Shown: positions 10,081 through 63,530 of the stretch, one piece after another
Numbering within the stretch: the first letter of the stretch is position 1
Layout: each line of letters opens with the position of its first letter
Virus record (IMG/VR): IMGVR_UViG_3300036546_000248
Direction: 5' to 3' (one strand)
DNA: 64,000 nucleotides
DNA from: a virus
Taxonomy: Duplodnaviria; Caudoviricetes
Notes under the pieces: model-generated
Told to the model about the DNA's origin: nothing
The model's input: only the letters and a program-made list of their open reading frames with translations
Databases searched by the model: none
Made by a program: the position numbers and the translations under genes

Positions 10081-11544
10081 ATGTCGCTGCCCGTACCTAG
10101 CGAGAATATTAAAGGCATTGAATGTAAACACGCGGTTTACACACTGCCGAATGACGATGGTGATGGGGATGCCCTGATCGTCAAAGAAGTCATTCACACC
10201 AAAGACGGTCAATTGATCCCGAACCTCAAGATCATCGAAAACTACAAGCGCGATTTTTTCTATGCGCGTGAAGGTCAACGTAACTATACAGAAAAGAAGA
10301 CTCAAGAAAAAATTAATAACCTGCAACGTTACACCTGCACCCAACGTAACCTGCTCAGACAGATTGCGCGGGCTAAAGGGGTGGGTACTTTGCGTGGGGG
10401 TTTGCGTCAGATTGCACGCGACCCTTATTTGTACGGGTGTGACATCACCACACCCACGCTCCTTAAACGTGAATACCAACTGCGTTCTCCAGATTGCTTG
10501 TCCCCCAATGGCGTAGCGGTATTCGACATCGAGACGGATGTTGTCCACGGTACTGAACAACCCATCCTGATGGCCTTGACGTTTAAGGACAAAGTCTACC
10601 TGGCTGCGACCAAGTTCTTTGTAGGTCAAGACGTTCGCTTCTTGGAAAAGCTTAACAAAGCCATTGAAAAGTACTTGGAGAAGTACACTAAAGAGCGCAA
10701 CATTACCTACGAACTGGAGATCGTTGAGACACCCGGTGAAGGCATTCGGCGTTGCTTTGCCAAAGCCCACGAATGGAAACCTGAATTCGTCACCATCTGG
10801 AACATCGACTTCGATATCCCCAAATGCGTCAAGCAATTGGAAGCTGAAGGAATTGATCCAGCTCAAGTTTTCAGCGATCCATCGGTTCCCGAGCGCTATA
10901 AGTTCTTCCGCTACAAGCAGGGCAACGCTACTAAGAAAACCGCTTCGGGTCGAATCGATTCGATTCACCCAGCCGAACGGTGGCACGTAGCCGAATGTCC
11001 AGCGACGTTCTTTCTGATCGACAGCATGTGTGTGTACAAGCGTATTCGAATGGCTAAGCAAAACCTGCCTTCGTACAGCTTGGACTACGTAATGAAGGAG
11101 GAGTTGTCGGGGCTTGGTAAGCTTAAGTTCGAAGAGGCCGACGAATATGCAGGGTTGGCATGGCACGTGTTCATGCAGACCTATTACAAAGTCGAATATG
11201 CGGTCTACAACATCTTCGACTGTATCGGTGTAGAACTGTTGGATGAGAAGACCAAAGACTTGCAGCTGGTTATCAGTACCCAGTCGCGGGCTTCGGAATA
11301 CACCATCTACAATTCGCAACCTCGTCGTTTGGTGGATGACTTCTATTTCTTCTGTCGTGACCGAGGCTATATCCTAGGTTCGTGTAGCAACGAAATGGTC
11401 CATGAATTGGACGCTTACGTTGTTGGCATGAATGGACACATCGTGACCTTACCCTCTCACCAGACAGTGGATAACGGCGTCCGCGCTATTAAAGAACTGC
11501 CTGATGTAAGGACCTACATTCGTCGTCACGTAGCCGACTTGGAT
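10081..11544 (+). CDS. Split family-B DNA polymerase, N-terminal gene (phiKZ gp82-like), exon 1
   Basis: Exonuclease motifs FDIETD, WNIDFD and YNIFD; ends VADLD at the start of polymerase motif A. Confidence 0.88.
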
Positions 11545-11901
11545 TAATTAAAAGTCCCTTCAGACTGGAAGGTCTGAATGTAAACTCTTCTAATTGCTGG
11601 AAACCCCTGAGAGCTGTTCCACCACTGCGAGGCGAAAGCCAAAGCCACGGTTTGAAAACGGAACGGATTGGGCAACCGTGGGTCCTAAGGACCCCTTTAG
11701 CAGCCAAGCTCCTCTATGCGAAAGCAGTGGAGAAGGTTCAACGACTATCCCGCAAGGGAGTAGGGACAAGCGTCCCGAAACGGAGAGCACCCGACCCACC
11801 GTATGGTGAAGGGTGATGATATAGTCTCGGCATGTGGGGAAAGCCCACAGCAGTGCTTGATCGCACGGGGTAAAGTGTTGCGACTTAACCCGAAGATACC
11901 G
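11545..11901 (+). mobile_element. Group I intron (IA2-like, ORF-less, 357 nt) in the DNA polymerase gene
   Basis: 5' exon ends in U; P1 GGAU/GUCC with a U-G pair; P AATTGCTGGAAA; Q TAGCAGCC; P7 GACTA(11743)/TAGTC(11822); P3 CTCTTC/GGAGAG; P7.1 and P7.2 hairpins; terminal G11901; splicing restores DLD-IVSTYPN. Confidence 0.92.
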
Positions 11902-12132
11902 ATTGTCAGCACGTACCCGAACGTTCAGGTGATCCTGAATATCTCGCGTGAGACCACGCTTTACGAACTGTACAAGATCAAAGGGTGTAATGAATACCAA
12001 ATGAGAATGGCTGGGTATAACCTGACAGGCGGTCACGTGAATGCGGTAGAAATTGCAGTCGACATCATGAAAGCCCCGAGCTTTGATCGGATGCTGGCAG
12101 AGTTCCTTATGGACCATCCAGACGCAGCATAA
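11902..12132 (+). CDS. DNA polymerase N-terminal gene, exon 2
   Basis: IVSTYPNVQVILNISRET completes DxxSxYP motif A; spliced product is 564 aa. Confidence 0.9.
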   Translation: MVSTYPNVQVILNISRETTLYELYKIKGCNEYQMRMAGYNLTGGHVNAVEIAVDIMKAPSFDRMLAEFLMDHPDAA

Positions 12133-12143
12133 AAGGGTTGTAC

Positions 12144-12180
12144 GCTAGGCTCCCTAGGGAGCCTAGTGCTTTTATGCCGC
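12144..12180. terminator. Bidirectional terminator with TTTTATGCCGC box
   Basis: GCTAGGCTCC/GGAGCCTAGT stem between convergent genes. Confidence 0.8.
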
Positions 12181-12635
12181 TACTTCCCACACCAGTCGTA
12201 CTTGGTACCGCCGTCATAGGCGACAGCATGTCCACGTTCAACCATGGCGGTTCCTACATTGATGTCGTCTATGTAGACATCAGCCAAAAGACGGAAATAC
12301 TTATCTCGGGCAAGGTTATGGAGTTCGATCTTCTGACCGCCTCTCAGTGCCCCTAATAGAAAATCTTTAGCCAAACCTGCTTTGTGACGCTCCGCTGCTC
12401 GCAGGACGTCGGTACTGCAACTGCTGCGAATCTCCGGGGTGTCTATCCCGTTGATCCTGACAGGTAACTCATGACCAAAGACATCCAACATCCCAGGCAG
12501 TTGTACCTTAAAGGTATCGCCATCATAGACTTCGACTACATTAGCCGAAGGCATGCGGATCATGTCAGTGGCCCACAGTGGACTCGGGAGCAATAGCGCA
12601 CACAAGAAAACTACCCGGATTAAAAGAGAACGCAT
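12180..12635 (-). CDS. Thermonuclease (SNase-like) with signal peptide
   Basis: VYDGDTF, RINGIDTPE and DKYFRLLA motifs; MRSLLIRVVFLCALLLPSPLWA leader. Confidence 0.85.
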   Translation of the reverse strand: MRSLLIRVVFLCALLLPSPLWATDMIRMPSANVVEVYDGDTFKVQLPGMLDVFGHELPVRINGIDTPEIRSSCSTDVLRAAERHKAGLAKDFLLGALRGGQKIELHNLARDKYFRLLADVYIDDINVGTAMVERGHAVAYDGGTKYDWCGK

Positions 12636-12794
12636 ACCCCACCTCACCAAAAAAAAAAAGAAACAGTTAAGCCTTCGACACCCAGCCACAGAAGTGACTG
12701 GGCGCCTTGGGTCATACCATTTCTGGGGGGGGGGGAGGTTAAGTCCTTCTAAAACAGCATAAAAAAAGAAATGGGGTCCGAAGACCCCTTTAAT

Positions 12795-14500: not shown

Positions 14501-14508
14501 GTAATATA
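14501..14508 (-). promoter_or_regulatory. phiKZ-type early promoter (TATATTAC)
   Basis: TATATTAC preceded by an A-rich tract, upstream of 14444. Confidence 0.65.
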
Positions 14509-14522
14509 GATCTGAGATTTTT

Positions 14523-14978
14523 TTATTTCGGTAGGCTCAAATCGAAGCATTCTGCGAACTCCAAGACGAACTCATCCATCCAATCTTGTACGTACATCAC
14601 GTTCCAGTAAGGGGTGGCTTGAAGTCGTTTAAAGTCCAGTCGGGAAACTCGTTGTAACTGACCCAAGATCCTCTCGATTCTCCGCATGAGGAAAGGAACC
14701 TCCTCCACTTGGGTTTGTACAGTTTCACGATAGACCACCAAATACGGATGGTCTTGGTGCACACTAAGCTCACTGACAACCACCTCGGCTAAATACAACC
14801 GAGCCCCTATGTCCACTTGGGCCTCAATCGGGAGGATGTGGCCATAGTAGTTGTAGAGGGAATCGGAAGTCAGGTTGAGGTGTGGGGTGCGCGGTACAAT
14901 CTGGGTAACAAACCGATCAAAGTCGGTAATCTCACGATTATCAACTTCAAGAACCAAATACCTGATTACACTCGCCAT
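14523..14978 (-). CDS. Hypothetical protein
   Basis: 151 aa; GGAG RBS. Confidence 0.65.
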   Translation of the reverse strand: MASVIRYLVLEVDNREITDFDRFVTQIVPRTPHLNLTSDSLYNYYGHILPIEAQVDIGARLYLAEVVVSELSVHQDHPYLVVYRETVQTQVEEVPFLMRRIERILGQLQRVSRLDFKRLQATPYWNVMYVQDWMDEFVLEFAECFDLSLPK

Positions 14979-14987
14979 GGAGCACTC

Positions 14988-15416
14988 CTACGTTTTTGGT
15001 TTTGCACAACTGTCGATCTGTTCTAAGAGAGCCACTTGGGCACGCGCTTTAAGGTACCGACAGGCCTGTTTGCGTTTGCGCCTAACCCAATGTGCGTCTG
15101 GCGGAAGTTGGTTATGCTTATTAGCCGAGACCTCTTGGGTGGACGTGTTGGAGAACAGTAACCACAACGGATAATGTCTCAGTCTACCCCCTACCGCTCG
15201 CAACACTATCGCTTGGCGAAAGGTCCGACGAGCCGCAGGAGATGCATCTTTCGGATTCTCAAGGTAGGTGCGAATCAAATGGGCGTTACTACCTTCGGGT
15301 TTGACACGACGCACGCGAGAATCTTTCGTACAACCCGCCCGCATAAAGACCACTGGCTGTTCAGGTTTGGGTTCAGTGAAACCTAATGCCGACAACAAAG
15401 AAGCGGGAAACTCCAT
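14988..15416 (-). CDS. Hypothetical protein (WVRRK family paralogue)
   Basis: 142 aa; AAGGA RBS. Confidence 0.65.
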   Translation of the reverse strand: MEFPASLLSALGFTEPKPEQPVVFMRAGCTKDSRVRRVKPEGSNAHLIRTYLENPKDASPAARRTFRQAIVLRAVGGRLRHYPLWLLFSNTSTQEVSANKHNQLPPDAHWVRRKRKQACRYLKARAQVALLEQIDSCAKPKT

Positions 15417-15475
15417 GTGACATCCTTAGTTTAAGTTTATTCAAGGTATAGTTCAAAAAAGTACGATATTACTAT

Positions 15476-15645
15476 GACTACAGGCAATGAACATTCATTG
15501 CTCACGAGGAGGTGATCCACTGAGGGGTCTGGTCCTGCCGAGACGGCACCATCCAGCCCAGTACCAGCGCCTGTATAGTGACTGCTGAGAAGCAGCCATG
15601 ACTTCAGCCTCTAAAGCCCTCACCCGAAGGTGAGGGCTTTATGCT
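15476..15645 (+). ncRNA. Candidate structured small RNA with extended complement to the 16S rRNA 3' end
   Basis: No convincing ORF; GATATTAC/TATG promoter-like signal at 15465-15476; closing stem TACAGGC/GCCTGTA; several hairpins including a GAGA tetraloop; ends at hairpin 15613-15640 plus TTTATGCTGC. Confidence 0.55.
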
Positions 15646-15647
15646 GC

Positions 15648-16115
15648 TTAGGGCTTTTGGTGACAGAACGAATCGGGCCAATAGTGCAGGACTGCATCCA
15701 TGGTGGTGGACTTGGCTTTGACTAACGAGATCCCTTCGAAATGCGGGAAGAAGAGTTTCTCGTAACGGGGGGTACTGACCTCCACTGTAATCGGTCGACA
15801 GTCTTCGCTGGCGACGAAGAAGACGATGTCCTGACTGAGCAACGGACTCTCCAACCACTGCTGAGGGGGCTTTAAACCCCAGCCCACGTAGCGAGTCATC
15901 ATTGCCTGATACATCTCAGGTGTGATGCCAGAGGTGGCGATTGGGTGAACAAAATAGTCGGGTGAATTGAAGCCTTCGGGAACTTCGCACATAAACTCAA
16001 TGTTACCCAACTGAGAACGAGCCAACGCATAAGGGAATGGGGGTGGGGCGTTCAGTAAAACGGGTTCTGGTGCGGGTTGTAGAAAGTCTACTTTACAACG
16101 TACTAACACGTACAT
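15648..16115 (-). CDS. Hypothetical protein
   Basis: 155 aa; early promoter upstream. Confidence 0.65.
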   Translation of the reverse strand: MYVLVRCKVDFLQPAPEPVLLNAPPPFPYALARSQLGNIEFMCEVPEGFNSPDYFVHPIATSGITPEMYQAMMTRYVGWGLKPPQQWLESPLLSQDIVFFVASEDCRPITVEVSTPRYEKLFFPHFEGISLVKAKSTTMDAVLHYWPDSFCHQKP

Positions 16116-16164: not shown

Positions 16165-16181
16165 GTAATATAGGTTTCAAA
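16165..16181 (-). promoter_or_regulatory. phiKZ-type early promoter
   Basis: TTTGAAACCTATATTAC on the minus strand. Confidence 0.7.
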
Positions 16182-16236: not shown

Positions 16237-16695
16237 TTAAAGGATGCGGTTGTACAGGTAGATGTGGACGGGAAGGTCAATGTCCGTCAATTTCTCATGG
16301 AGGAGGGGGCGAAGGAACTTAATGTAATCAAGCCCCCCATAACCACAACCCAAAGGCGGAAGCCCCAGTTCTGTGATCCCCATCTCTTTATAGTTCGCCA
16401 CAAGGTAATCCAGCCCCTCGATGACGTACTCTGGTTTAGACGGATTTTTCCAGTGTGCTTTGGTGGGAAACAATAGGACCTGATGACGTGACTTTGGGAT
16501 CTTATACAGTTGGGGTTGCCCCACCTTCAATTCACCCTTGTCACACAGATCTTTGTAGAAGTCGAAGAGCCCCCTCACCCGTTGTTTCATGGCCAATGCC
16601 AACCCATTCCCCATCACCCCTACCGTATTAACCGGGGCTGTGATAGTTTGCAACCGGGTATCAAACAAGGACCCTTCGCCTTCATACACGATCAT
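16237..16695 (-). CDS. Macrodomain ADP-ribosylglycohydrolase (DarG-like)
   Basis: VNTVGVMGNGLA, FPTKAHW and PPLGCGYGGL motifs. Confidence 0.85.
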   Translation of the reverse strand: MIVYEGEGSLFDTRLQTITAPVNTVGVMGNGLALAMKQRVRGLFDFYKDLCDKGELKVGQPQLYKIPKSRHQVLLFPTKAHWKNPSKPEYVIEGLDYLVANYKEMGITELGLPPLGCGYGGLDYIKFLRPLLHEKLTDIDLPVHIYLYNRIL

Positions 16696-17161: not shown

Positions 17162-18679
17162 TTAAAGGGAGGACTTTATGAGTACCTTGTAGATGCGTTG
17201 GTTGAGCAGGGTAAAAAAAACTTGCGCCACATCAATCGGTACGACGTACGGACTGAACTGGGCCTCGTCTTCCTTAACCTGGTTGGCCTTACACACCGGG
17301 CACTCGTGCTTGGGCAGACCGATTACCGAAACAGTCACCGAGTTGATGTACTCACTCACCGCTGCCAAGGTGGTGGTGCGGGTCTCTTCATCGGCAGTCA
17401 ATACACCCATGAGGTTTTCGATCGTGTCACGGTCAGTGCCGATTTCCGCCTCTTCGATATGCACTTCCTTCACCCAGTGACCGTACTGACGCAGGTTGGT
17501 CAAACGCCCCTGGTTGGTGATGTAGGCATCGCGCTCATCGCCACGGATGTTCTCACCGAATGCACCTTCCATCACCTTGATGATGTTGGCAATCCAGGCG
17601 TTGCCCGAATTGTAGTACTGTTCGATGGTTGGGACCGCCAGAGTGATGGCGATTTGGTCGGTGATGGACACCCGACGTTCTTGGTTGTACTTGTGCTCTT
17701 CGGCGTAGCGCTTGAGGTCTTCGTCGGACATCCGCGCCTTGCGCTGAGACATGCGCTTGGTCTGCCATTCCGACAGCGCCGCACGGTTGGTCCACATCAG
17801 CTTGCTGAGATTCAGCAGGGCTTCGAACACATGGTTGCACACCTTCTCGGTGTTGATACAGCCACGCGAATACGGGTAACCGTTCGGGTAGATGGCCGAT
17901 GCCAGACCCCAAAGGATCAACGGGATATCGGTCACCAACACAATGCTTTCCAAGTACTTGGGCGACATTTCTTTAGCGTTGGTGTCGTAGACGTGCTGGA
18001 GTGCAAAATCCAGCAGATCGTTGATCAGGTGAACCGCGGTGTTCGAAAACACCAGACCGTTGGTCATACGACCCAGCGTCACTTTTGCCGAACCGACACG
18101 ACGCTCCAGTTCGAGGATCGACGCTTCAGACGGCGCTTTGAAACTGACCCAGATACCAGTATGCCACAGCGGTACTTGGTGGATGGTACCCAAACCCAGC
18201 GCAGCCGTCATGCGCATGACAGCACGCTCGCCAGTCAGGACAGTACCGGACTCTGCAAAGCGCGGACGGGAGATGCCCATGGGTTGGCCAGCCGACTCAA
18301 CGGTCTGTTGCCAGTCACCGCCTTCTTGGTCCAGCGCTGCTTGGAAGGGTTCGTTGCGCAGCAGGTTGGCAGAACCACGTTCGAGCGATTCAACCCAACG
18401 GCGAGTACCAGCATCACCTTCGACCTCGATGTTCGGGTGGTTATCACCGGTCTCTTTGAGATCGCCCAGTGTCCCGTTGATGAACGTCAGGTGTAGGTTG
18501 GGATCGGCGAAGATCGCTTTGGCATCGGCACCGGAGTACGGTTTGTCGATGGGGTACTGAAGACGAACATTGAGGTTAACCGCTTTCGGGGCGTAGCTAC
18601 TGGTCGACTTCGAGTTCAGGGTGTTCTCGACACCTTCTTCGGGTGCGTTCTCGGGTGTTGGCAGTTCGTTCTCAGACAT
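17162..18679 (-). CDS. Conserved chimallivirus protein with C-terminal CxxC (about gp77)
   Basis: Probable start MSENELP immediately after the upstream stop; CPVC; synteny. Confidence 0.6.
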   Translation of the reverse strand: MSENELPTPENAPEEGVENTLNSKSTSSYAPKAVNLNVRLQYPIDKPYSGADAKAIFADPNLHLTFINGTLGDLKETGDNHPNIEVEGDAGTRRWVESLERGSANLLRNEPFQAALDQEGGDWQQTVESAGQPMGISRPRFAESGTVLTGERAVMRMTAALGLGTIHQVPLWHTGIWVSFKAPSEASILELERRVGSAKVTLGRMTNGLVFSNTAVHLINDLLDFALQHVYDTNAKEMSPKYLESIVLVTDIPLILWGLASAIYPNGYPYSRGCINTEKVCNHVFEALLNLSKLMWTNRAALSEWQTKRMSQRKARMSDEDLKRYAEEHKYNQERRVSITDQIAITLAVPTIEQYYNSGNAWIANIIKVMEGAFGENIRGDERDAYITNQGRLTNLRQYGHWVKEVHIEEAEIGTDRDTIENLMGVLTADEETRTTTLAAVSEYINSVTVSVIGLPKHECPVCKANQVKEDEAQFSPYVVPIDVAQVFFTLLNQRIYKVLIKSSL

Positions 18680-18681
18680 TG

Positions 18682-19131
18682 TTACACCTGCGGGTTCTGA
18701 TTGAGTTGGTTGAAAAGGTCGGTGATCTGCATAGCAGTCGGCACCACGACCAATTGATATGACGTGATCCACTGATCATAGGCCTGTGCCACATCCATCA
18801 GGAGGGCCAGTTTAGGCAGGTCGACTACGCCACCACGGTGTTGATCGACTGCAGCGTTCAGTTGATTCAGTCGTGTACTGAAATCCTGAACGTCGCGATT
18901 CAGTGTATTGGCCAGTTGCATCAGCGAAGCTTTATCCGCAACGCGTGCCACCAGTTCCTGATTGCGCAGAAGAGCAACCACCTGTGTGGGCGACTGGTTC
19001 AGCTGGAAGCACTGAGCTTGCAAATGGCTCAGATCATTCCAGATGTTTTCGAAGTCTTTGCGCTCCTGAATCAGCTCTTTAAGACTGTTCGGCCCACGCT
19101 TGACGTAGGAAGGGTTGTGCTTACGGGACAT
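18682..19131 (-). CDS. Hypothetical coiled-coil protein
   Basis: About 149 aa from MSRKHNP. Confidence 0.6.
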   Translation of the reverse strand: MSRKHNPSYVKRGPNSLKELIQERKDFENIWNDLSHLQAQCFQLNQSPTQVVALLRNQELVARVADKASLMQLANTLNRDVQDFSTRLNQLNAAVDQHRGGVVDLPKLALLMDVAQAYDQWITSYQLVVVPTAMQITDLFNQLNQNPQV

Positions 19132-25406: not shown

Positions 25407-27383
25407 TTAACGTACGCCGGATTTGCCCACGACCAGATAGTCGAGGGGATGGTCAGGACGGTTGTCCAAGATGAAGGTTCGGATATCGCTGAGTACCGCC
25501 CCCTGCTTCTCATAGGCCATGGTGGCCGACAAGCTGCGGAACCACATGTTGTCCTCGTAATACCCCACTACACCATTCAGCCGGTCAACCGGCATACGGT
25601 GGTCATGGTTCTCGGGGTCAATTGCCATGGTGGCCAACAAGATCGCTTCCAGGTGCGCAATGTTCACACTGAGCTTGGAGTTGATCAGGTCGTCAAACGC
25701 AAACAGGGCTTCCTCGGTGGTGCTGTAGGAGCCTGAGTTCATGCGCTTGGAGGACTTATCGCGAGCCTTGTTCGCACTAGGCGAGGCCTTGATGAAGTTC
25801 TCAATCATGGTCATGTATTCCACAGTGTTCAGGTGACGCTGCGGCAGTTCAAAGATATCGTCCTCGAAGTCCCAGTCCGACAGATCGATCAGGAAATCAC
25901 CACGGGAGGTGGTGGTCCAACCGACTTCCTTGAGGAAGCTCAAGAACAGCTCACCGAAGTAAGCACGTCGAGAACCCATCGAGACAGAGACCGTCACAGT
26001 ATTGATCGCCCCGTCATTAATAATCTCCAGCTGAACTTCAACCAACTCAGCCAGACGTTCCATCGGCAACTCACGGACATGACGTACCCGATGCAGGTCA
26101 GTCAGGCGTGGAGCATACTGATGCGGGACAATCAACCGCACTTCATCGGCAATTTTCAATTCTGCCATTAGGCGCAGTTTCGATTCGTCGCTACCCTCCC
26201 GTATGTAGTATTGATCGTGTTCCGAGATCTTGAAAGATTCCACGCTAGTACTGCCATCCAGGTGTTTGGTCGACAATACGCGCTGCGACAGAATCTCACA
26301 GAGCGTGGTGGCACTGACGTGACCCAGTACCGTCTTGGCCGGAATGGCGTTGGCCAGTTCGCCGAAGCAGGTGGCACAAACACCGTATGGATCAAGGTGT
26401 TGACACTTAAGGATGCTGCGGGTTTTCAGGGTACGACCGATCAACTTGTTACGGTCGCGCTTGATGATGGGTTTGAGTTTTCCATCATCTTCCAGATAGA
26501 ACTTACCCAACAGGTTCTCGAAGTTGGAGGAGGTGATCTTCCACTCGATGTAATGTTGGCTACCGCAGTCGCCTGGATGGATGTGCTTCAGCGTCTCACA
26601 CACCAGCTGCATCCGACGGTTGAAGTACTCAGAATCAGCCACTGGGTCTTTGGCAAACCACAGGGCCTTGGACGCCGAGCGAGACTCGATCATCGATTCG
26701 TACAGCTTGGTGATCCCGTGGGTGTAACCTTTCAGCACCGGAGTGTGGAAGATGCGTGAGTTGATGTCCGTCAGATAGCCTCGTACCGAGACACACTGGA
26801 GAATCTGACCCATGCTCACCAGACCTGACTTAGCCACCTTGGCCACAGGGTTACCCACCAGTTCGTTCTCGTCGAGCAAAACCCCCCGCACGGCGGTGTA
26901 GGTGTGTTCGATAGAGTTCGGGGACGGTTTGGTGTTGTCGTTAATTTCCTTGATCTTGGGATGGGTGACGATGTCGATGAAATCAAGAATGCAGATACTG
27001 CTCACCGACTGCGGGACGTTCCAGGTGAAATCGTTGTAGATGTCCTGGAAGGTGTCGTACACCACTTGTCGGGCAGCATCCAGATCCAACAGATGGCCTT
27101 CGCCGCGTTCATCGAACCAGTCTTTGGTTTCAAACAGGGAGGTTTCAATCAGCTCGGCGGTGGTGCGCATACCGAGGCGAGCTTTACCGATGTGATAGCG
27201 TTTGTACACAGGGGCTTGCGGGTAGAGTCGGTTGAACACCATGGTGTACCAACTGTACTGCGTCAACCGGGTATCAGTTTCAAGGTCCCCATCATCGAAC
27301 TCCAGAATAAAGGGACGGTCCGGCATGGCCCACAGTTGAGCAGTAGACATAGCCAGAATCTGGCGCACGGGAATACGTTCCAC
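25407..27383 (-). CDS. Non-virion RNAP beta-prime C-terminal subunit (phiKZ gp74-like)
   Basis: HPGDCGS, TRSILKC...CATCFG and STKHLDG. Confidence 0.85.
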   Translation of the reverse strand: MERIPVRQILAMSTAQLWAMPDRPFILEFDDGDLETDTRLTQYSWYTMVFNRLYPQAPVYKRYHIGKARLGMRTTAELIETSLFETKDWFDERGEGHLLDLDAARQVVYDTFQDIYNDFTWNVPQSVSSICILDFIDIVTHPKIKEINDNTKPSPNSIEHTYTAVRGVLLDENELVGNPVAKVAKSGLVSMGQILQCVSVRGYLTDINSRIFHTPVLKGYTHGITKLYESMIESRSASKALWFAKDPVADSEYFNRRMQLVCETLKHIHPGDCGSQHYIEWKITSSNFENLLGKFYLEDDGKLKPIIKRDRNKLIGRTLKTRSILKCQHLDPYGVCATCFGELANAIPAKTVLGHVSATTLCEILSQRVLSTKHLDGSTSVESFKISEHDQYYIREGSDESKLRLMAELKIADEVRLIVPHQYAPRLTDLHRVRHVRELPMERLAELVEVQLEIINDGAINTVTVSVSMGSRRAYFGELFLSFLKEVGWTTTSRGDFLIDLSDWDFEDDIFELPQRHLNTVEYMTMIENFIKASPSANKARDKSSKRMNSGSYSTTEEALFAFDDLINSKLSVNIAHLEAILLATMAIDPENHDHRMPVDRLNGVVGYYEDNMWFRSLSATMAYEKQGAVLSDIRTFILDNRPDHPLDYLVVGKSGVR

Positions 27384-40510: not shown

Positions 40511-41900
40511 CTTTGATGTTTCTGCTATGTGAACCAACTTACACAACTGGACTTGTTGTAAACTGATTTAATCTACCTAAAGCCCATGGGGTGTTATAAA
40601 CGAATGCCCACGGACCTACTTGTCGAATGACATCCTTCTTAAGGGTTGTCGTTACAGCTTTCTTACTCAGACCTTGAGTGGTGTGGAACAGACTGGCGCT
40701 CTTAAACACCGAGACTTCGCCCGTCACCACATTCTTGGCCAACACTTCTTTAGGACCTCTACCCAAAGCTCGATCCAAAGACTCTTGGTCGATTTCGGGC
40801 AAACCTTCTTCCTTATACGCACAGACATAACGTTTGTTAACCAAACGCAAGACATCGCCTCTGGACATACATTGGAAGATGTGGCTGGGAAGTGCATCGA
40901 TAGCACGCCCTAAAAGACCCATCGAAGGGTATTCCTGAACTTCGTTGGTCTGGATATCTAAACACAACACTGGTCGTGAAGGCTGTTGACCCAGACTATC
41001 CCTTTCACGGATACGAGCTTTGTGAAGCTGTTCGGGGATTCTATCCTTTGTTCCATGGTGGGTGAGTACCCACCCATCGATAGGGATTCCTTCCTTAATG
41101 TGCTTCCAAATCACCTCAGGTTGATACCCGAAGTGCTCTCCCGCATGGAACAGGTCTCGGAGGAACATACACACACCGTCCTTATCAGCCAAAATCCGCG
41201 GACGTGATTCTGACTTAAAGAGTGCAGCGTGTATATTGTTAACCTTAACCGTTGCCCATTCGAGGTTTTCTACGTCGTTATTGGTACAGTCTCCATCGAT
41301 GTGGTTCACTGTTAACTGACTAACGTCCCTATCCCACGGTAAGTGTGCCAAGGCCACCATCCGATGAACGCCGAACGTTGGCATACTGCCATCCAACATT
41401 CTAACGTTAACCGTGATGTAGCCGTCAAGGTTGACGTAGTAATTCTTCTCAACGCCTTCGGAGTCAAAGATCCTACCGCACCGAGAAGCCATATACCCGT
41501 CAGTGCCCGGTATGATCTTCAAATCCATAACGTATCCTTTTCTTTATTTACACATAGCAGAAACGCACGAGTCGTTAATTCGTGGTTACCTGTGGTCCAG
41601 ACAGATAACTTCCTCACTTTCATGAGGCGGTAGACTATATCTTCTTCCAGTTTCCCAGAAGCTCCCTGTTTCGAATGTCACTTGACACCCTACTCTACTC
41701 GGTTCGTCTCTCGACGCCTTTCGATAGTCGTTGAACCTTGTCCGTAACTTGTCTCCCGACAATTTGTAGGACCTTGGCTGCTGATTGTCCAATCTCGATT
41801 CTTTTCAAACCATGACGTTTATCGTTTCCGATTCCGCTTTGGTGAACCAAGCTCTAAGGAGTTTCCAGCAATTTAAGGAGTTTAATGACGGCAATACTCT
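40511..41900 (-). mobile_element. Group I intron (IA2-like, 1390 nt) carrying an HNH endonuclease
   Basis: P1 UGACGGU/GCCGUCA with a U-G pair; P10 AGAGUAUU/GAUGCUCU; AAUUGCUGGAAA; AAUCAGCAGCC; P7 GACUA/UAGUC; terminal G; 14-bp inverted repeat (41551-41564/40518-40531) loops out the ORF. Confidence 0.95.
40539..41528 (-). CDS. Intron-encoded HNH homing endonuclease (NUMOD4-HNH)
   Basis: VHRMVALAHL...VNHIDGDCTNNDVENLEW; NUMOD4-like N-terminus. Confidence 0.92.
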   Translation of the reverse strand: MDLKIIPGTDGYMASRCGRIFDSEGVEKNYYVNLDGYITVNVRMLDGSMPTFGVHRMVALAHLPWDRDVSQLTVNHIDGDCTNNDVENLEWATVKVNNIHAALFKSESRPRILADKDGVCMFLRDLFHAGEHFGYQPEVIWKHIKEGIPIDGWVLTHHGTKDRIPEQLHKARIRERDSLGQQPSRPVLCLDIQTNEVQEYPSMGLLGRAIDALPSHIFQCMSRGDVLRLVNKRYVCAYKEEGLPEIDQESLDRALGRGPKEVLAKNVVTGEVSVFKSASLFHTTQGLSKKAVTTTLKKDVIRQVGPWAFVYNTPWALGRLNQFTTSPVV

Positions 41901-43157
41901 ACCGTCAAAATCAGCATTCATACCCCCTAGTACTAGGACTGATAAGCTCACTGTATTGACGTTGATGTCTTCACTCTTGATGCGGGTGACGTACAGGCGT
42001 TGCGCCGACAAACGGGTCAACGTAGGGTTACGTTGGAAGATTACCGGGATGCCCTTACGAGGCGATTCGGCGATCATTTCCTTGAAGATCTCATCGATCA
42101 GAGGATGGTACCGCAAGGTGTGTTCGAACAACAGCTTGTTGATTTGCTTGGGCGAATACCCACGATGGAGCAGTTTGGCCGTCAGGTGAGTTTTGAACAC
42201 CATGATGGACAGGGACCACGGGAGTTCCAGTTCCTCATGATGGTGTTGGTCTGAACGCGAGGTGATTACAGCCCGGAAGCTGAAATGGTCACGAGAACCA
42301 AACACGTGTTTACGCCACCAACCTGTTTTACTACCCAACTGCGCACCGATGAACGGGGCATAGTACTCAGATAGCATCACGATGGCCGTGACGGTACGTT
42401 TCTCGATTTCCTCTTGGCTCAGTTTGGTTTGACTGTGCACAATGCCGCTGATGGTGTAAATCGCATCAATGGCAGGGCGCATGGTCAGGTCACCGTACAG
42501 GCCTGTAGCTGCCTTCTCGATGATGAACGCCGCTTTCGACGGGATGGGCACCTTATGGCTGAAGATCAGATCGCGGTACAAAGCAATGAAAGTGCGTAGG
42601 TATTCCACCTTACGCTTCTTCTTATTGTCGTACAGCGGCCCTTCCTCCGAGCACATCAGTTGCATGATACTGTCGAAGTTGTGGTAGAAAGAATTCAACC
42701 CCCGCTTATACCCTTGTGCCGAAAGGCTTTGGGTGAAGAACTCCATCTTCTTATTCGGTGGGCGATATCCCGGATTGATCAACCAGTCCAGTAGACTGAC
42801 GCTCTTGATCGTCATCTCGGACTTCAAGATCACGTAGACCCAGGGGTTGATCAGACGTTCTACCCCTTGAGGGGCAGCAATCCACAACAACGCCTCCAGC
42901 GGCCGTTCCGTAGAAGGCAGGCAGAAGTGGTTACAGATTGGACAACGTACGCCAACGTTGTACTGATACTTCAGGTAGCCGCAATCGCATGAAGGTACGA
43001 TATCAAGCGACTCACCAGTGTACTTGGTGATTGCGAGGTTGTGGAGAGCGTCTCGGTCCTCTTTGCTGTCGATTTGATAATCGTTAATGATGAGCGGTAC
43101 GCTGGTCAGTGAATCAAATAGCTGATCGTGGTTCACGATCTCTGCACAGACACCCAT
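41901..43157 (-). CDS. nvRNAP beta-prime N-terminal subunit (phiKZ gp55-like), exon 1
   Basis: Zinc finger CDC...CPIC, FSFRAVI, RNPTL and NADFDG; spliced product is 476 aa. Confidence 0.92.
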
Positions 43158-45292: not shown

Positions 45293-45300
45293 GTAATATA
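45293..45300 (-). promoter_or_regulatory. Early promoter of chmA
   Basis: TATATTAC about 63 nt upstream of the ATG. Confidence 0.65.
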
Positions 45301-63513: not shown

Positions 63514-63530
63514 GTAATATGTATTTGAAA
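63514..63530 (-). promoter_or_regulatory. phiKZ-type early promoter
   Basis: TTTCAAATACATATTAC on the minus strand. Confidence 0.65.

What the first reader, a model, noticed from the sequence alone, without database searches (positions are those of the whole stretch)
15476..15645. Candidate phage sRNA carrying a 13-nt perfect complement of the 16S rRNA 3' tail
AGGAGGTGATCCA (15507-15519) is exactly complementary to the conserved 16S end (UGGAUCACCUCCU). A given 13-mer is expected about 0.002 times on both strands of 64 kb. It extends well beyond a normal SD and has no canonical start codon at SD distance. It lies in a ~170-nt unit with a promoter-like GATATTACTATG, a 5' end that begins a closing stem (ACUACAGGC/GCCUGUA-UAGU), internal hairpins (GCAAUGA/UCAUUGC, UGCCG/CGGCA, CUGCU-GAGA-AGCAG) and a terminator plus TTTATGCTGC box. 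Inference: on + it could be a 30S-ribosome decoy or tether for host translation shut-off or ribosome recruitment to the phage nucleus. On - it would be an anti-SD mimic that blocks SD-led mRNAs or decoys a 16S-cutting defence nuclease.
Basis: partly seen in the sequence, partly recalled or inferred. Interest (0 to 1): 0.8.

Follow-up and report, generated by a model that had tools for sequence, protein, structure and literature searches.

The report
Phage RNA complementary to 16S tail
A phiKZ-like jumbo phage carries a gene for a small folded RNA whose never-changing centre is a perfect 13-letter complement of the tail of the host ribosome's 16S RNA. Look-alike, unannotated genes sit in phiKZ and other model Pseudomonas phages, so this may be a phage RNA that grips host ribosomes directly.

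Summary
AGGAGGTGATCCA sits at 15507-15519 (+). It is unique in the window and is its longest 16S complement. It lies in a ~170-nt unit (15476-15647) between two minus-strand genes of a phiKZ-like jumbo phage.

Fourteen distinct copies from related uncultured phages fold the same way. 99% of cells are paired and 11 pairs show compensatory changes (0 of 500 shuffles reach this). G.U pairs favour the + strand 25 to 1. The 23 nt around the 13-mer never vary (0/23 against 69/149 columns). The overlapping ORF is not conserved (11-48 codons, two frames), so the unit is non-coding.

Similar stand-alone, unannotated units occur in phiKZ, PhiPA3, 201phi2-1, PS119XW and Phabio. There the complement to the 16S end runs 14 nt in Phabio and 17-19 nt in the other four (wobbles counted). 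Five non-Pseudomonas relatives lack it.

The best reading is a trans-acting phage RNA that pairs with the anti-Shine-Dalgarno tail of 30S subunits. What that pairing achieves is unknown. Neither expression nor binding was shown here. I found no description of it in the papers I could search. It is directly testable in phiKZ.

The parts
15455..15476 (+). Promoter-like stretch. It holds an A-run (15455-15460), ATATTAC (15466-15472; the phiKZ early consensus is TATATTAC) and TATG (15473-15476; the phiKZ late motif, with +1 at the G, 15476).
   Evidence: Consensus sequences come from PMC7058600 Table 2 and PMC7598289. The spacing of the A-run differs from the four other early-like sites in the window. 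The motif is degraded in L131 and L141, so the promoter class is not settled.
15476..15647 (+). Whole RNA unit (~165-172 nt): a four-way junction domain, a 3' hairpin and a terminator.
   Evidence: Fold. Alignment of 14 copies. Pair counts, (99.0% paired, 11 compensatory pairs). Strand from 25 G.U cells against 1 A.C cell.
15479..15485 (+). P1 closing stem, 5' strand. It pairs with 15569-15575.
   Evidence: One G-C to A-U swap in L146. A similar closing stem (CAAGGCA/UGCCUUG) is found in the Pseudomonas phage copies.
15486..15499 (+). P2 hairpin.
   Evidence: The stem never varies; the loop differs in L141 and L146.
15501..15523 (+). Invariant 23-nt core. It holds the 13-nt 16S complement (15507-15519) and is predicted as a weak hairpin, P3.
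   Evidence: 0 of 23 columns vary, against 69 of 149 elsewhere, Fisher p = 3.5e-6. P3 pairs never vary, so pairing is neither supported nor refuted. Cost to open is 5.4 kcal/mol against -23.7 for the duplex.
15525..15559 (+). P4 stem (15525-15532 with 15553-15559) enclosing hairpin P5 (15536-15548), which has a GNRA-type loop.
   Evidence: P4 has three pairs changed on both sides and P5 has two. The P5 loop begins G-N-G-A in all 14 copies.
15560..15568 (+). Unpaired junction with a near-invariant GGTACC palindrome.
   Evidence: Its role is unknown.
15578..15599 (+). P6 hairpin with a GNRA loop. It is dispensable, being absent in L146.
   Evidence: Three compensatory pairs. The loop is GAGA, GUGA, GGGA or GAAA in 11 copies and inverted (UCCC) in two. 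It is deleted in L146.
15605..15647 (+). Terminator hairpin (15613-15641) with an outer CAGC/GCTG clamp and the CTTTATGCTGC box.
   Evidence: two compensatory pairs, 7 copies each way. The CTTTATG box is kept in all relatives. The hairpin is nearly symmetric, so it may also end the minus-strand 155-aa gene.
14988..15416 (-). Basic 142-aa ORF that always lies next to the RNA gene in the window's clade, transcribed divergently. It is a possible partner, unproven.
   Evidence: Linkage. No Pfam or PHROG family. No fold match.

Best explanation
Window 15476-15647 (+) is a stand-alone gene for a structured non-coding RNA of about 170 nt in a phiKZ-like jumbo phage. A closing stem holds three arms. 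The middle arm presents a 13-nt stretch that is a perfect complement of 16S rRNA positions 1528-1540, which include the anti-Shine-Dalgarno sequence. I infer that the RNA leaves the phage compartment and hybridises to the free 3' tail of 16S rRNA on host 30S subunits. The net gain is about -18 kcal/mol, against -7 to -11 for the duplex alone of an ordinary Shine-Dalgarno site. It would therefore occupy or tether those subunits without being translated. Shown here: the RNA-level structure, the + strand, the lack of a conserved ORF, the invariance of the complement, and the same complement (longer in four of five) in similar units of five Pseudomonas phage genera. Inferred: transcription in this phage, binding to 30S, and any effect on translation.
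For: The 13-mer is unique and the longest 16S complement in the window. Fourteen distinct copies were found, 12 through the neighbouring protein and one each through a 13-mer-containing pattern (L131) and a 3' block that lacks it (L135). Flanking proteins fall to 60-67% identity while the 23-nt core has 0 variable columns against 69/149 elsewhere. Structure: 99.0% of cells paired, 11 pairs with changes on both sides, 0/500 shuffles as high, slid controls 0-4. Strand: 25 G.U cells against 1 A.C cell, and GNRA-type loops on +. Non-coding: ORF of 11-48 codons in two frames. Energetics. Similar units in phiKZ, PhiPA3, 201phi2-1, PS119XW and Phabio are intergenic and have their own terminator and CTTTATG box. 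In phiKZ, PhiPA3 and PS119XW the motif reads UAAGGGGG-UGAUCCAG and pairs with the last 17-19 nt of the common bacterial 16S end, with only G.U wobbles. The rreB small mRNA shows that a 17-nt Shine-Dalgarno sequence holds an RNA on 30S subunits and hampers its translation (PMC5711450).
Against: No transcript ends or strand were shown for this phage. Metatranscriptome contigs cover the unit but run across the proposed +1 into the neighbouring gene. The promoter match is imperfect and is degraded in some copies. The invariant flanks of the 13-mer are not explained by pairing to the 16S tail alone. The covariance model of the window's clade finds only Phabio, and weakly (12 bits), so common descent with the Pseudomonas phage units is likely but not proven. 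Five non-Pseudomonas relatives lack the motif. The neighbouring phage genes carry purine-rich, SD-like stretches before their starts, so a complete block of the anti-SD would hurt the phage too. The 16S end used for comparison comes from general knowledge (universal primer rD1/1541R), not from the unknown host.
Confidence: 0.55

Rival explanations
1. The RNA pairs with the 16S 3' region, but its purpose is not to block initiation. It may act on immature or damaged subunits, invading the 3' strand of helix 45 during 30S assembly. Or it may cap the 16S 3' end so that 3' exonucleases or defence nucleases cannot start there.
For: In the Pseudomonas phage copies the complement runs past the single-stranded tail into the 3' strand of helix 45. 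In phiKZ, PhiPA3 and PS119XW it reaches the very last nucleotide, giving a flush duplex end. In the window, CUGAGGG after the 13-mer can pair imperfectly with the same strand. RNase R starts 30S decay at the 16S 3' end (title and abstract of PMC10901742).
Against: No data bear on assembly or decay here. The window copy and Phabio do not pair with the last base. Opening helix 45 on a mature subunit costs energy that I did not compute.
Confidence: 0.15
2. The conserved core is a binding site for a protein or for another RNA, and its match to 16S rRNA is a side effect of a purine-rich motif. Candidate partners are the neighbouring basic 142-aa protein and a nucleus-associated RNA-binding protein.
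For: The invariant flanks (15501-15506 and 15520-15523) go beyond the 16S complement. The 142-aa gene is always adjacent in the window's clade. ChmC of PhiPA3 binds several unannotated small RNAs (bioRxiv 10.1101/2023.09.22.559000).
Against: The Pseudomonas phage units lack a 142-aa homologue nearby, yet keep the match and in four of five extend it, exactly along the 16S sequence. Their A-to-G change still pairs as G.U. A 17-19-nt match by chance is very unlikely.
Confidence: 0.17
3. The functional strand is minus. On that strand the unit is part of the long 5' leader of the 142-aa gene and carries a copy of the 16S tail. That copy could mask Shine-Dalgarno sites or decoy a factor that binds the 16S end.
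For: The unit lies in a minus-strand gene block and is always just upstream of the 142-aa gene. RNA-library contigs join the unit to the 5' end of that gene. One copy has an A.C cell that would be G.U on minus. Two copies have the P6 loop inverted.
Against: G.U cells are 25 against 1 in favour of +. The P5 loop is G-N-G-A on + in all 14 copies. In PS119XW and PhiPA3 the terminator has a T-run only on the strand that carries the complement. In Phabio, 201phi2-1 and PhiPA3 the unit runs with its flanking genes on that strand.
Confidence: 0.08
4. It is a tiny mRNA of the rreB kind. The extended Shine-Dalgarno sequence drives, or throttles, translation of a short peptide from CTG or from the upstream ATG.
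For: An ATG-led ORF of 33 codons spans the motif, and a CTG lies 7 nt after GGAGG. rreB is a 165-nt mRNA with a 17-nt Shine-Dalgarno sequence.
Against: ORF length ranges from 11 to 48 codons, and two copies use another frame. Indels shift the frame, and substitutions follow stems, not codons. No ATG, GTG or TTG lies at Shine-Dalgarno distance. No start at that distance was apparent to the eye in the Pseudomonas phage copies.
Confidence: 0.05

Closest known systems
rreB / rreR small mRNAs of alpha-proteobacteria (Hahn et al. 2016, PMC5711450)
   Same: They are about 165 nt. They have an unusually long complement to the 16S 3' end (16-17 nt). They associate strongly with 30S subunits through it, and translation is poor.
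   Different: rreB is a bacterial gene with a conserved 14-aa ORF and a GTG start at Shine-Dalgarno distance. The phage unit has no conserved ORF or start. It has a covarying multi-stem fold and is carried by lytic jumbo phages.
Small RNAs catalogued in phiKZ and 201phi2-1 (Grad-seq PMC8545117; ONT-cappable-seq PMC10914365, PMC11512511)
   Same: They are short, structured, terminator-ended transcripts from intergenic or 5' leader regions of the same phage group, and some are conserved between genera.
   Different: The named ones lie elsewhere: 3'UTR_PHIKZ298, the 5'UTR of p40, those upstream of PHIKZ221, PHIKZ302 and gp182, and sRNA005 upstream of gp277. The phiKZ copy of this unit lies between gp203 and gp204, and the 201phi2-1 copy between gp304 and gp305. 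None of those papers mentions a 16S complement in the text I could read. Their candidate tables were not available to me.
Synthetic oligonucleotides complementary to the 16S 3' end, used as initiation inhibitors (from general knowledge, not checked here)
   Same: They occupy the anti-Shine-Dalgarno tail by base pairing and so compete with mRNA.
   Different: They are artificial and unstructured. Here the complement is presented by a natural folded RNA.
Extended Shine-Dalgarno of rpsU in Flavobacteriales (PMC9976891, abstract seen)
   Same: A long Shine-Dalgarno sequence serves as a probe of the state of the 16S tail.
   Different: It is a cis-acting part of an mRNA that is translated, and a host gene rather than a phage gene.
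Protein-sponge RNAs such as CsrB/RsmZ
   Same: The idea is the same: a small RNA titrates a component of the translation apparatus through GGA-rich sites.
   Different: Those carry many GGA hairpin loops and bind CsrA/RsmA. This RNA has one site, and that site matches rRNA over 13-19 nt.

Membership tests
rreB/rreR-type small mRNA with extended Shine-Dalgarno | At least 16 nt complementary to the 16S 3' end | tested here: not met
   13 nt in the window copy, 14 with a G.U. The phiKZ, PhiPA3, 201phi2-1 and PS119XW copies do reach 17-19 nt.
rreB/rreR-type small mRNA with extended Shine-Dalgarno | Conserved short ORF with a start codon at Shine-Dalgarno distance | tested here: not met
   No ATG, GTG or TTG within 14 nt. 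ORF of 11-48 codons in two frames.
rreB/rreR-type small mRNA with extended Shine-Dalgarno | Co-sedimentation with 30S subunits | not testable with these tools
   This needs gradient fractionation. Public Grad-seq data for phiKZ exist (PMC8545117) but could not be re-read here.
Stand-alone small RNA gene (promoter, structured body, intrinsic terminator) | Conserved secondary structure supported by covariation | tested here: met
   11 compensatory pairs and 99.0% of cells paired; 0/500 shuffles as high.
Stand-alone small RNA gene (promoter, structured body, intrinsic terminator) | Own promoter and mapped transcript ends | tested here: inconclusive
   ATATTAC and TATG motifs are present. RNA-library contigs cannot show ends or strand.
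Stand-alone small RNA gene (promoter, structured body, intrinsic terminator) | Intrinsic terminator on the coding strand | tested here: met
   A G+C-rich hairpin with two compensatory pairs is followed by TTTAT. The simple scan missed it because the T-run is short.
Published phiKZ-group sRNAs (sRNA005/sRNA upstream of gp182, 5'UTR_p40, 3'UTR_PHIKZ298) | Same genomic position relative to homologous genes | tested here: not met
   The phiKZ copy lies between gp203 and gp204, and the 201phi2-1 copy between gp304 and gp305.
Any Rfam family, tRNA, tmRNA or group I intron | Score at or above the family threshold | tested here: not met
   No gathering-score match at the locus. The best sub-threshold match is CC2171, 20.6 bits against a threshold of 75. 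No tRNA or tmRNA.
CsrA/RsmA sponge RNA | Several GGA motifs in hairpin loops | tested here: not met
   There is a single GGA-bearing arm. The other loops are GNRA-type.
One RNA family shared by the window's clade and the Pseudomonas chimalliviruses | Statistically supported sequence and structure similarity beyond the 16S complement | tested here: inconclusive
   Shared features: a block of 20 of 21 nt with Phabio, the same order of closing stem, hairpin, complement, arm with GNRA loop, 3' hairpin and terminator, and the CTTTATG box. The covariance model scores only Phabio, at 12 bits.

The most novel reading that the evidence does not exclude
A family of jumbo-phage riboregulators whose direct target is the ribosome itself. 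The RNA base-pairs with the last 13-19 nt of host 16S rRNA, covering the anti-Shine-Dalgarno tail and the edge of helix 45. In this way it captures, marks or reprograms 30S subunits during infection by nucleus-forming phages.
Probability: 0.45. Interest if true: 0.9.

Novelty: new variant of a known kind. Interest (0 to 1): 0.8.

Why it matters
Phages are known to take over ribosomes with proteins (phiKZ gp014, for example). I found no phage RNA that works by pairing with ribosomal RNA in the literature I could search. Nucleus-forming phages must pass their mRNAs to host ribosomes outside the shell, and how they bias those ribosomes is an open question. A conserved RNA with a 13-19-nt grip on the anti-Shine-Dalgarno tail would be a simple handle on that problem. 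Copies sit unannotated in phiKZ, PhiPA3 and 201phi2-1, so the idea can be tested at once in laboratory strains with existing tools and partly with public data. It would also add an RNA gene to 57 or more deposited phage genomes.

Tried and rejected
- **Rfam, tRNA and tmRNA scans:** nothing at the locus.
- **blastn of the unit and of 6 kb around it against deposited phages:** no match. Only a 44-nt core query at a lax threshold found Phabio.
- **A 14-nt pattern scan of viral contigs:** only chance hits.
- **Metagenome scan with a 3' block that excludes the 13-mer:** one new copy and one duplicate (L137, the same contig as L004), both with the 13-mer intact, plus four chance hits.
- **RNA libraries:** contigs of four runs cover the unit, but they show neither ends nor strand. 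Their gaps prove nothing.
- **142-aa neighbour:** no Pfam or PHROG family, no solved-structure match (Foldseek best E 0.5; VIA-align best Z 3.0), and only its own small family in the profile search.
- **Covariance model R1:** no second copy in the window. No hit in five non-Pseudomonas relatives, although that tool warns an empty answer shows nothing. Only Phabio among five Pseudomonas phages.
- **Looser 10-nt pattern in those relatives:** chance hits inside genes.
- **ChmC eCLIP peak between PhiPA3 gp203 and gp204:** a different locus from the PhiPA3 copy.
- **Supplementary tables of the two ONT-cappable-seq papers:** not held. I therefore cannot say whether the phiKZ or 201phi2-1 copy is among their unnamed candidates.
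- **Two transposon-mutagenesis preprints:** they say nothing about this intergenic region.
- **Cross-clade alignment:** too poor for a joint consensus fold.

Full report
**Observation.** The 13-mer AGGAGGTGATCCA is at 15507-15519 on the + strand and occurs once in the window, even when one mismatch is allowed. It is the reverse complement of the 16S rRNA end that the universal reverse primers (rD1/1541R) copy. Over a thousand papers in the library hold this string or a close variant, and the listed ones I saw print it as a 16S primer. It is the longest complement of the 16S tail in the 64 kb. The next is 11 nt inside coding DNA, and matches that sit before starts are 8 nt or shorter. No ATG, GTG or TTG follows within 14 nt.

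**Setting.** The unit fills a 231-nt gap between two minus-strand ORFs, 14988-15416 (142 aa) and 15648-16115 (155 aa). Neither has a Pfam or PHROG family. The window comes from an uncultured phiKZ-like jumbo phage. ORF 17162-18772 is a homologue of phiKZ gp077 and matches 239 jumbo phage records. There are two group I introns. Relatives are 221-223-kb viral contigs. DNA runs that hold the stretch come from shale-gas, groundwater, surface and wastewater samples.

**Copies in the window's own clade.** I found 14 distinct copies: 12 through the neighbouring 142-aa protein, one (L131) through an 18-nt pattern that overlaps the 13-mer, and one (L135) through a 3' block of the unit that does not include it. 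The flanking protein falls to 60-67% identity and flanking DNA to about 75%. The unit itself stays about 93% identical. The 23 nt at 15501-15523 have no variable column, against 69 of 149 elsewhere (Fisher p = 3.5e-6). The most divergent copies (L141, L146) have rewritten stems P4, P5 and P6, and one has lost P6. The core is still untouched.

**Structure and strand.**
- On the alignment of 14 copies, 99.0% of cells form standard pairs.
- Eleven pairs carry changes on both sides. None of 500 shuffles reaches that, and sliding the partners gives 0-4.
- The arm that holds the 13-mer never varies, so its predicted weak hairpin is neither supported nor refuted.
- For the strand, 25 cells are G.U on +, which would be mismatches on minus. 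One cell shows the reverse.
- The P5 loop begins G-N-G-A in all 14 copies. The P6 loop is GNRA in 11 of the 13 copies that have P6, and inverted in two.
- The unit is preceded by ATATTAC (the phiKZ early consensus is TATATTAC) and TATG (the phiKZ late motif, with the start at G, here 15476).
- Four similar ATATTAC sites with upstream A-runs lie before minus-strand genes elsewhere in the window. The spacing at our site differs, and some copies have a weaker motif.
- I take + as the functional strand with about 85-90% confidence.

**Not coding.** The ATG-led ORF across the motif is 11, 18, 24, 33, 37 or 48 codons long, depending on the copy. Two copies use another frame, and paired indels shift the frame inside it. 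Substitutions follow helices, not codons.

**A wider family.** A 44-nt core query found a 21-nt block with one mismatch in Pseudomonas phage Phabio. It lies in an unannotated gap that has its own upstream and downstream terminators. The Phabio unit in turn matched Pawinskivirus phages. A pattern search then found one intergenic site each in phiKZ, PhiPA3, 201phi2-1, PS119XW and Phabio.

All five sites share the same order of parts:
- an ATATAG motif, or TTATAG in 201phi2-1;
- a closing stem (CAAGGCA with UGCCUUG);
- a hairpin;
- the 16S complement;
- an arm with a small hairpin that is often GNRA-looped;
- the 3' strand of the closing stem;
- one more hairpin;
- a terminator followed by CTTTATG.

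An inner helix covaries between genera, read directly: GAUAC/GUAUC, GGUAC/GUACC, GUACUC/GAGUAC and GGGGU/ACCCC.

In phiKZ, PhiPA3 and PS119XW the motif reads UAAGGGGGUGAUCCAG, followed by CC or UC. This can pair with the last 17-19 nt of the common bacterial 16S end, right up to its final base. The single A-to-G change gives a G.U pair. 201phi2-1 reaches 17 nt.

The phiKZ unit lies between gp203 and gp204. It is present in 57 Pseudomonas phage records, nearly always with no annotated feature. In PS119XW, as in the window, it runs against both neighbours. In Phabio and phiKZ the next gene has its own TATATTAC promoter after the unit's terminator. So the unit is a gene of its own, not a leader.

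Five non-Pseudomonas relatives lack the motif: pEa_SNUABM_54, Eowyn, PCH45, Xoo-sp14 and RP31.

My covariance model of the window's clade scores only Phabio, and weakly. Common descent of the two groups is therefore likely but not proven. If they were instead independent inventions, the case for the 16S target would be stronger still.

**What is known.** Grad-seq and ONT-cappable-seq papers describe small RNAs of phiKZ and 201phi2-1. The named ones lie at other loci (compared with 89, 90), and none of the text I could read mentions a 16S complement. Searches combining phiKZ or nucleus-forming phages with anti-Shine-Dalgarno terms found nothing relevant. The candidate tables of those papers were not available. 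The nearest analogue is rreB of Bradyrhizobium. It is a 165-nt mRNA whose 17-nt Shine-Dalgarno sequence holds it on 30S subunits and impedes its translation. The phage unit differs in having no conserved ORF or start.

**Mechanism.** Opening the 13-mer costs about 5.4 kcal/mol. The 13-bp duplex gives -23.7, against -7 to -11 for ordinary Shine-Dalgarno sites. I therefore commit to the following: the RNA is made from the + strand, reaches the cytoplasm and hybridises to the 16S tail of free 30S subunits.

What follows from that binding is open. A full block of initiation seems unlikely, because the neighbouring phage genes carry purine-rich, SD-like stretches before their starts. Partial titration, tethering of subunits, or shielding or remodelling of the 16S 3' end and helix 45 are all possible.

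The rivals, given with odds in their own section, are:
- action on immature or decaying subunits;
- a protein or other RNA as the true partner;
- the minus strand as the functional one;
- a tiny mRNA.

**Limits.**
- Expression, RNA ends and binding were not shown.
- RNA-library contigs cover the unit but cross the proposed start.
- The host of the window's phage is unknown.
- The 16S end used for comparison is the general bacterial one, taken from my own knowledge.

Noticed in passing
window 11535-11850 (+) and 41611-41910 (-): Two group I introns above the Rfam threshold (61 and 80 bits). The first appears to interrupt a + strand gene that starts at 10081.
   Followed up: no
window 14501-14507 (-), 16165-16171 (-), 45293-45299 (-), 63514-63520 (-): ATATTAC sites with an A-run 10-13 nt upstream. 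At least two lie about 45-50 nt before minus-strand starts. They are likely early promoters of the phiKZ type (consensus TATATTAC).
   Followed up: partly
window 15625-15628 and 15588-15591; L003-L149 copies: Hairpin loops are inverted between copies while the stems stay the same. The terminator loop is CGAA or TTCG, and the P6 loop is GGGA or TCCC. This looks like loop inversion within palindromic DNA.
   Followed up: partly
window 15648; L004:2026-2769, L006, L135, L147:458-1270: An indel hot spot lies exactly at the stop codon next to the unit. Several relatives carry an extra gene there, called at 247 aa in L004 and 270 aa in L147, which the window lacks. L004 also lacks the 151-aa gene at 14523-14978.
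   Followed up: partly
window 12124-12178: A second GCAGCATAAA box flanks another symmetric terminator-like hairpin between convergent genes. This suggests a shared terminator design in this phage.
   Followed up: no
window 16237-16695 (-) and 12180-12689 (-): A macro-domain protein (PF01661) and a staphylococcal-nuclease-like protein (PF00565) lie in the same minus-strand block as the RNA gene.
   Followed up: no
window 26528-26538 (+): An 11-nt complement of the 16S tail with no start codon at normal spacing. It is probably chance inside a gene.
   Followed up: partly
L167 (phiKZ 212000-214000), L169 (PhiPA3), L156 (PS119XW), L155 (Phabio): In the Pseudomonas phages the RNA unit lies beside, or within about 700 nt of, the packaged helicase gene of the phiKZ gp203 (DarB-like/SNF2) kind. 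It runs either divergent from that gene or upstream of it.
   Followed up: partly
window 15563-15568: A near-invariant GGTACC palindrome sits in the unpaired junction of the RNA. In some copies it extends to a 10-nt palindrome. This could mean dimerisation or a protein site.
   Followed up: no
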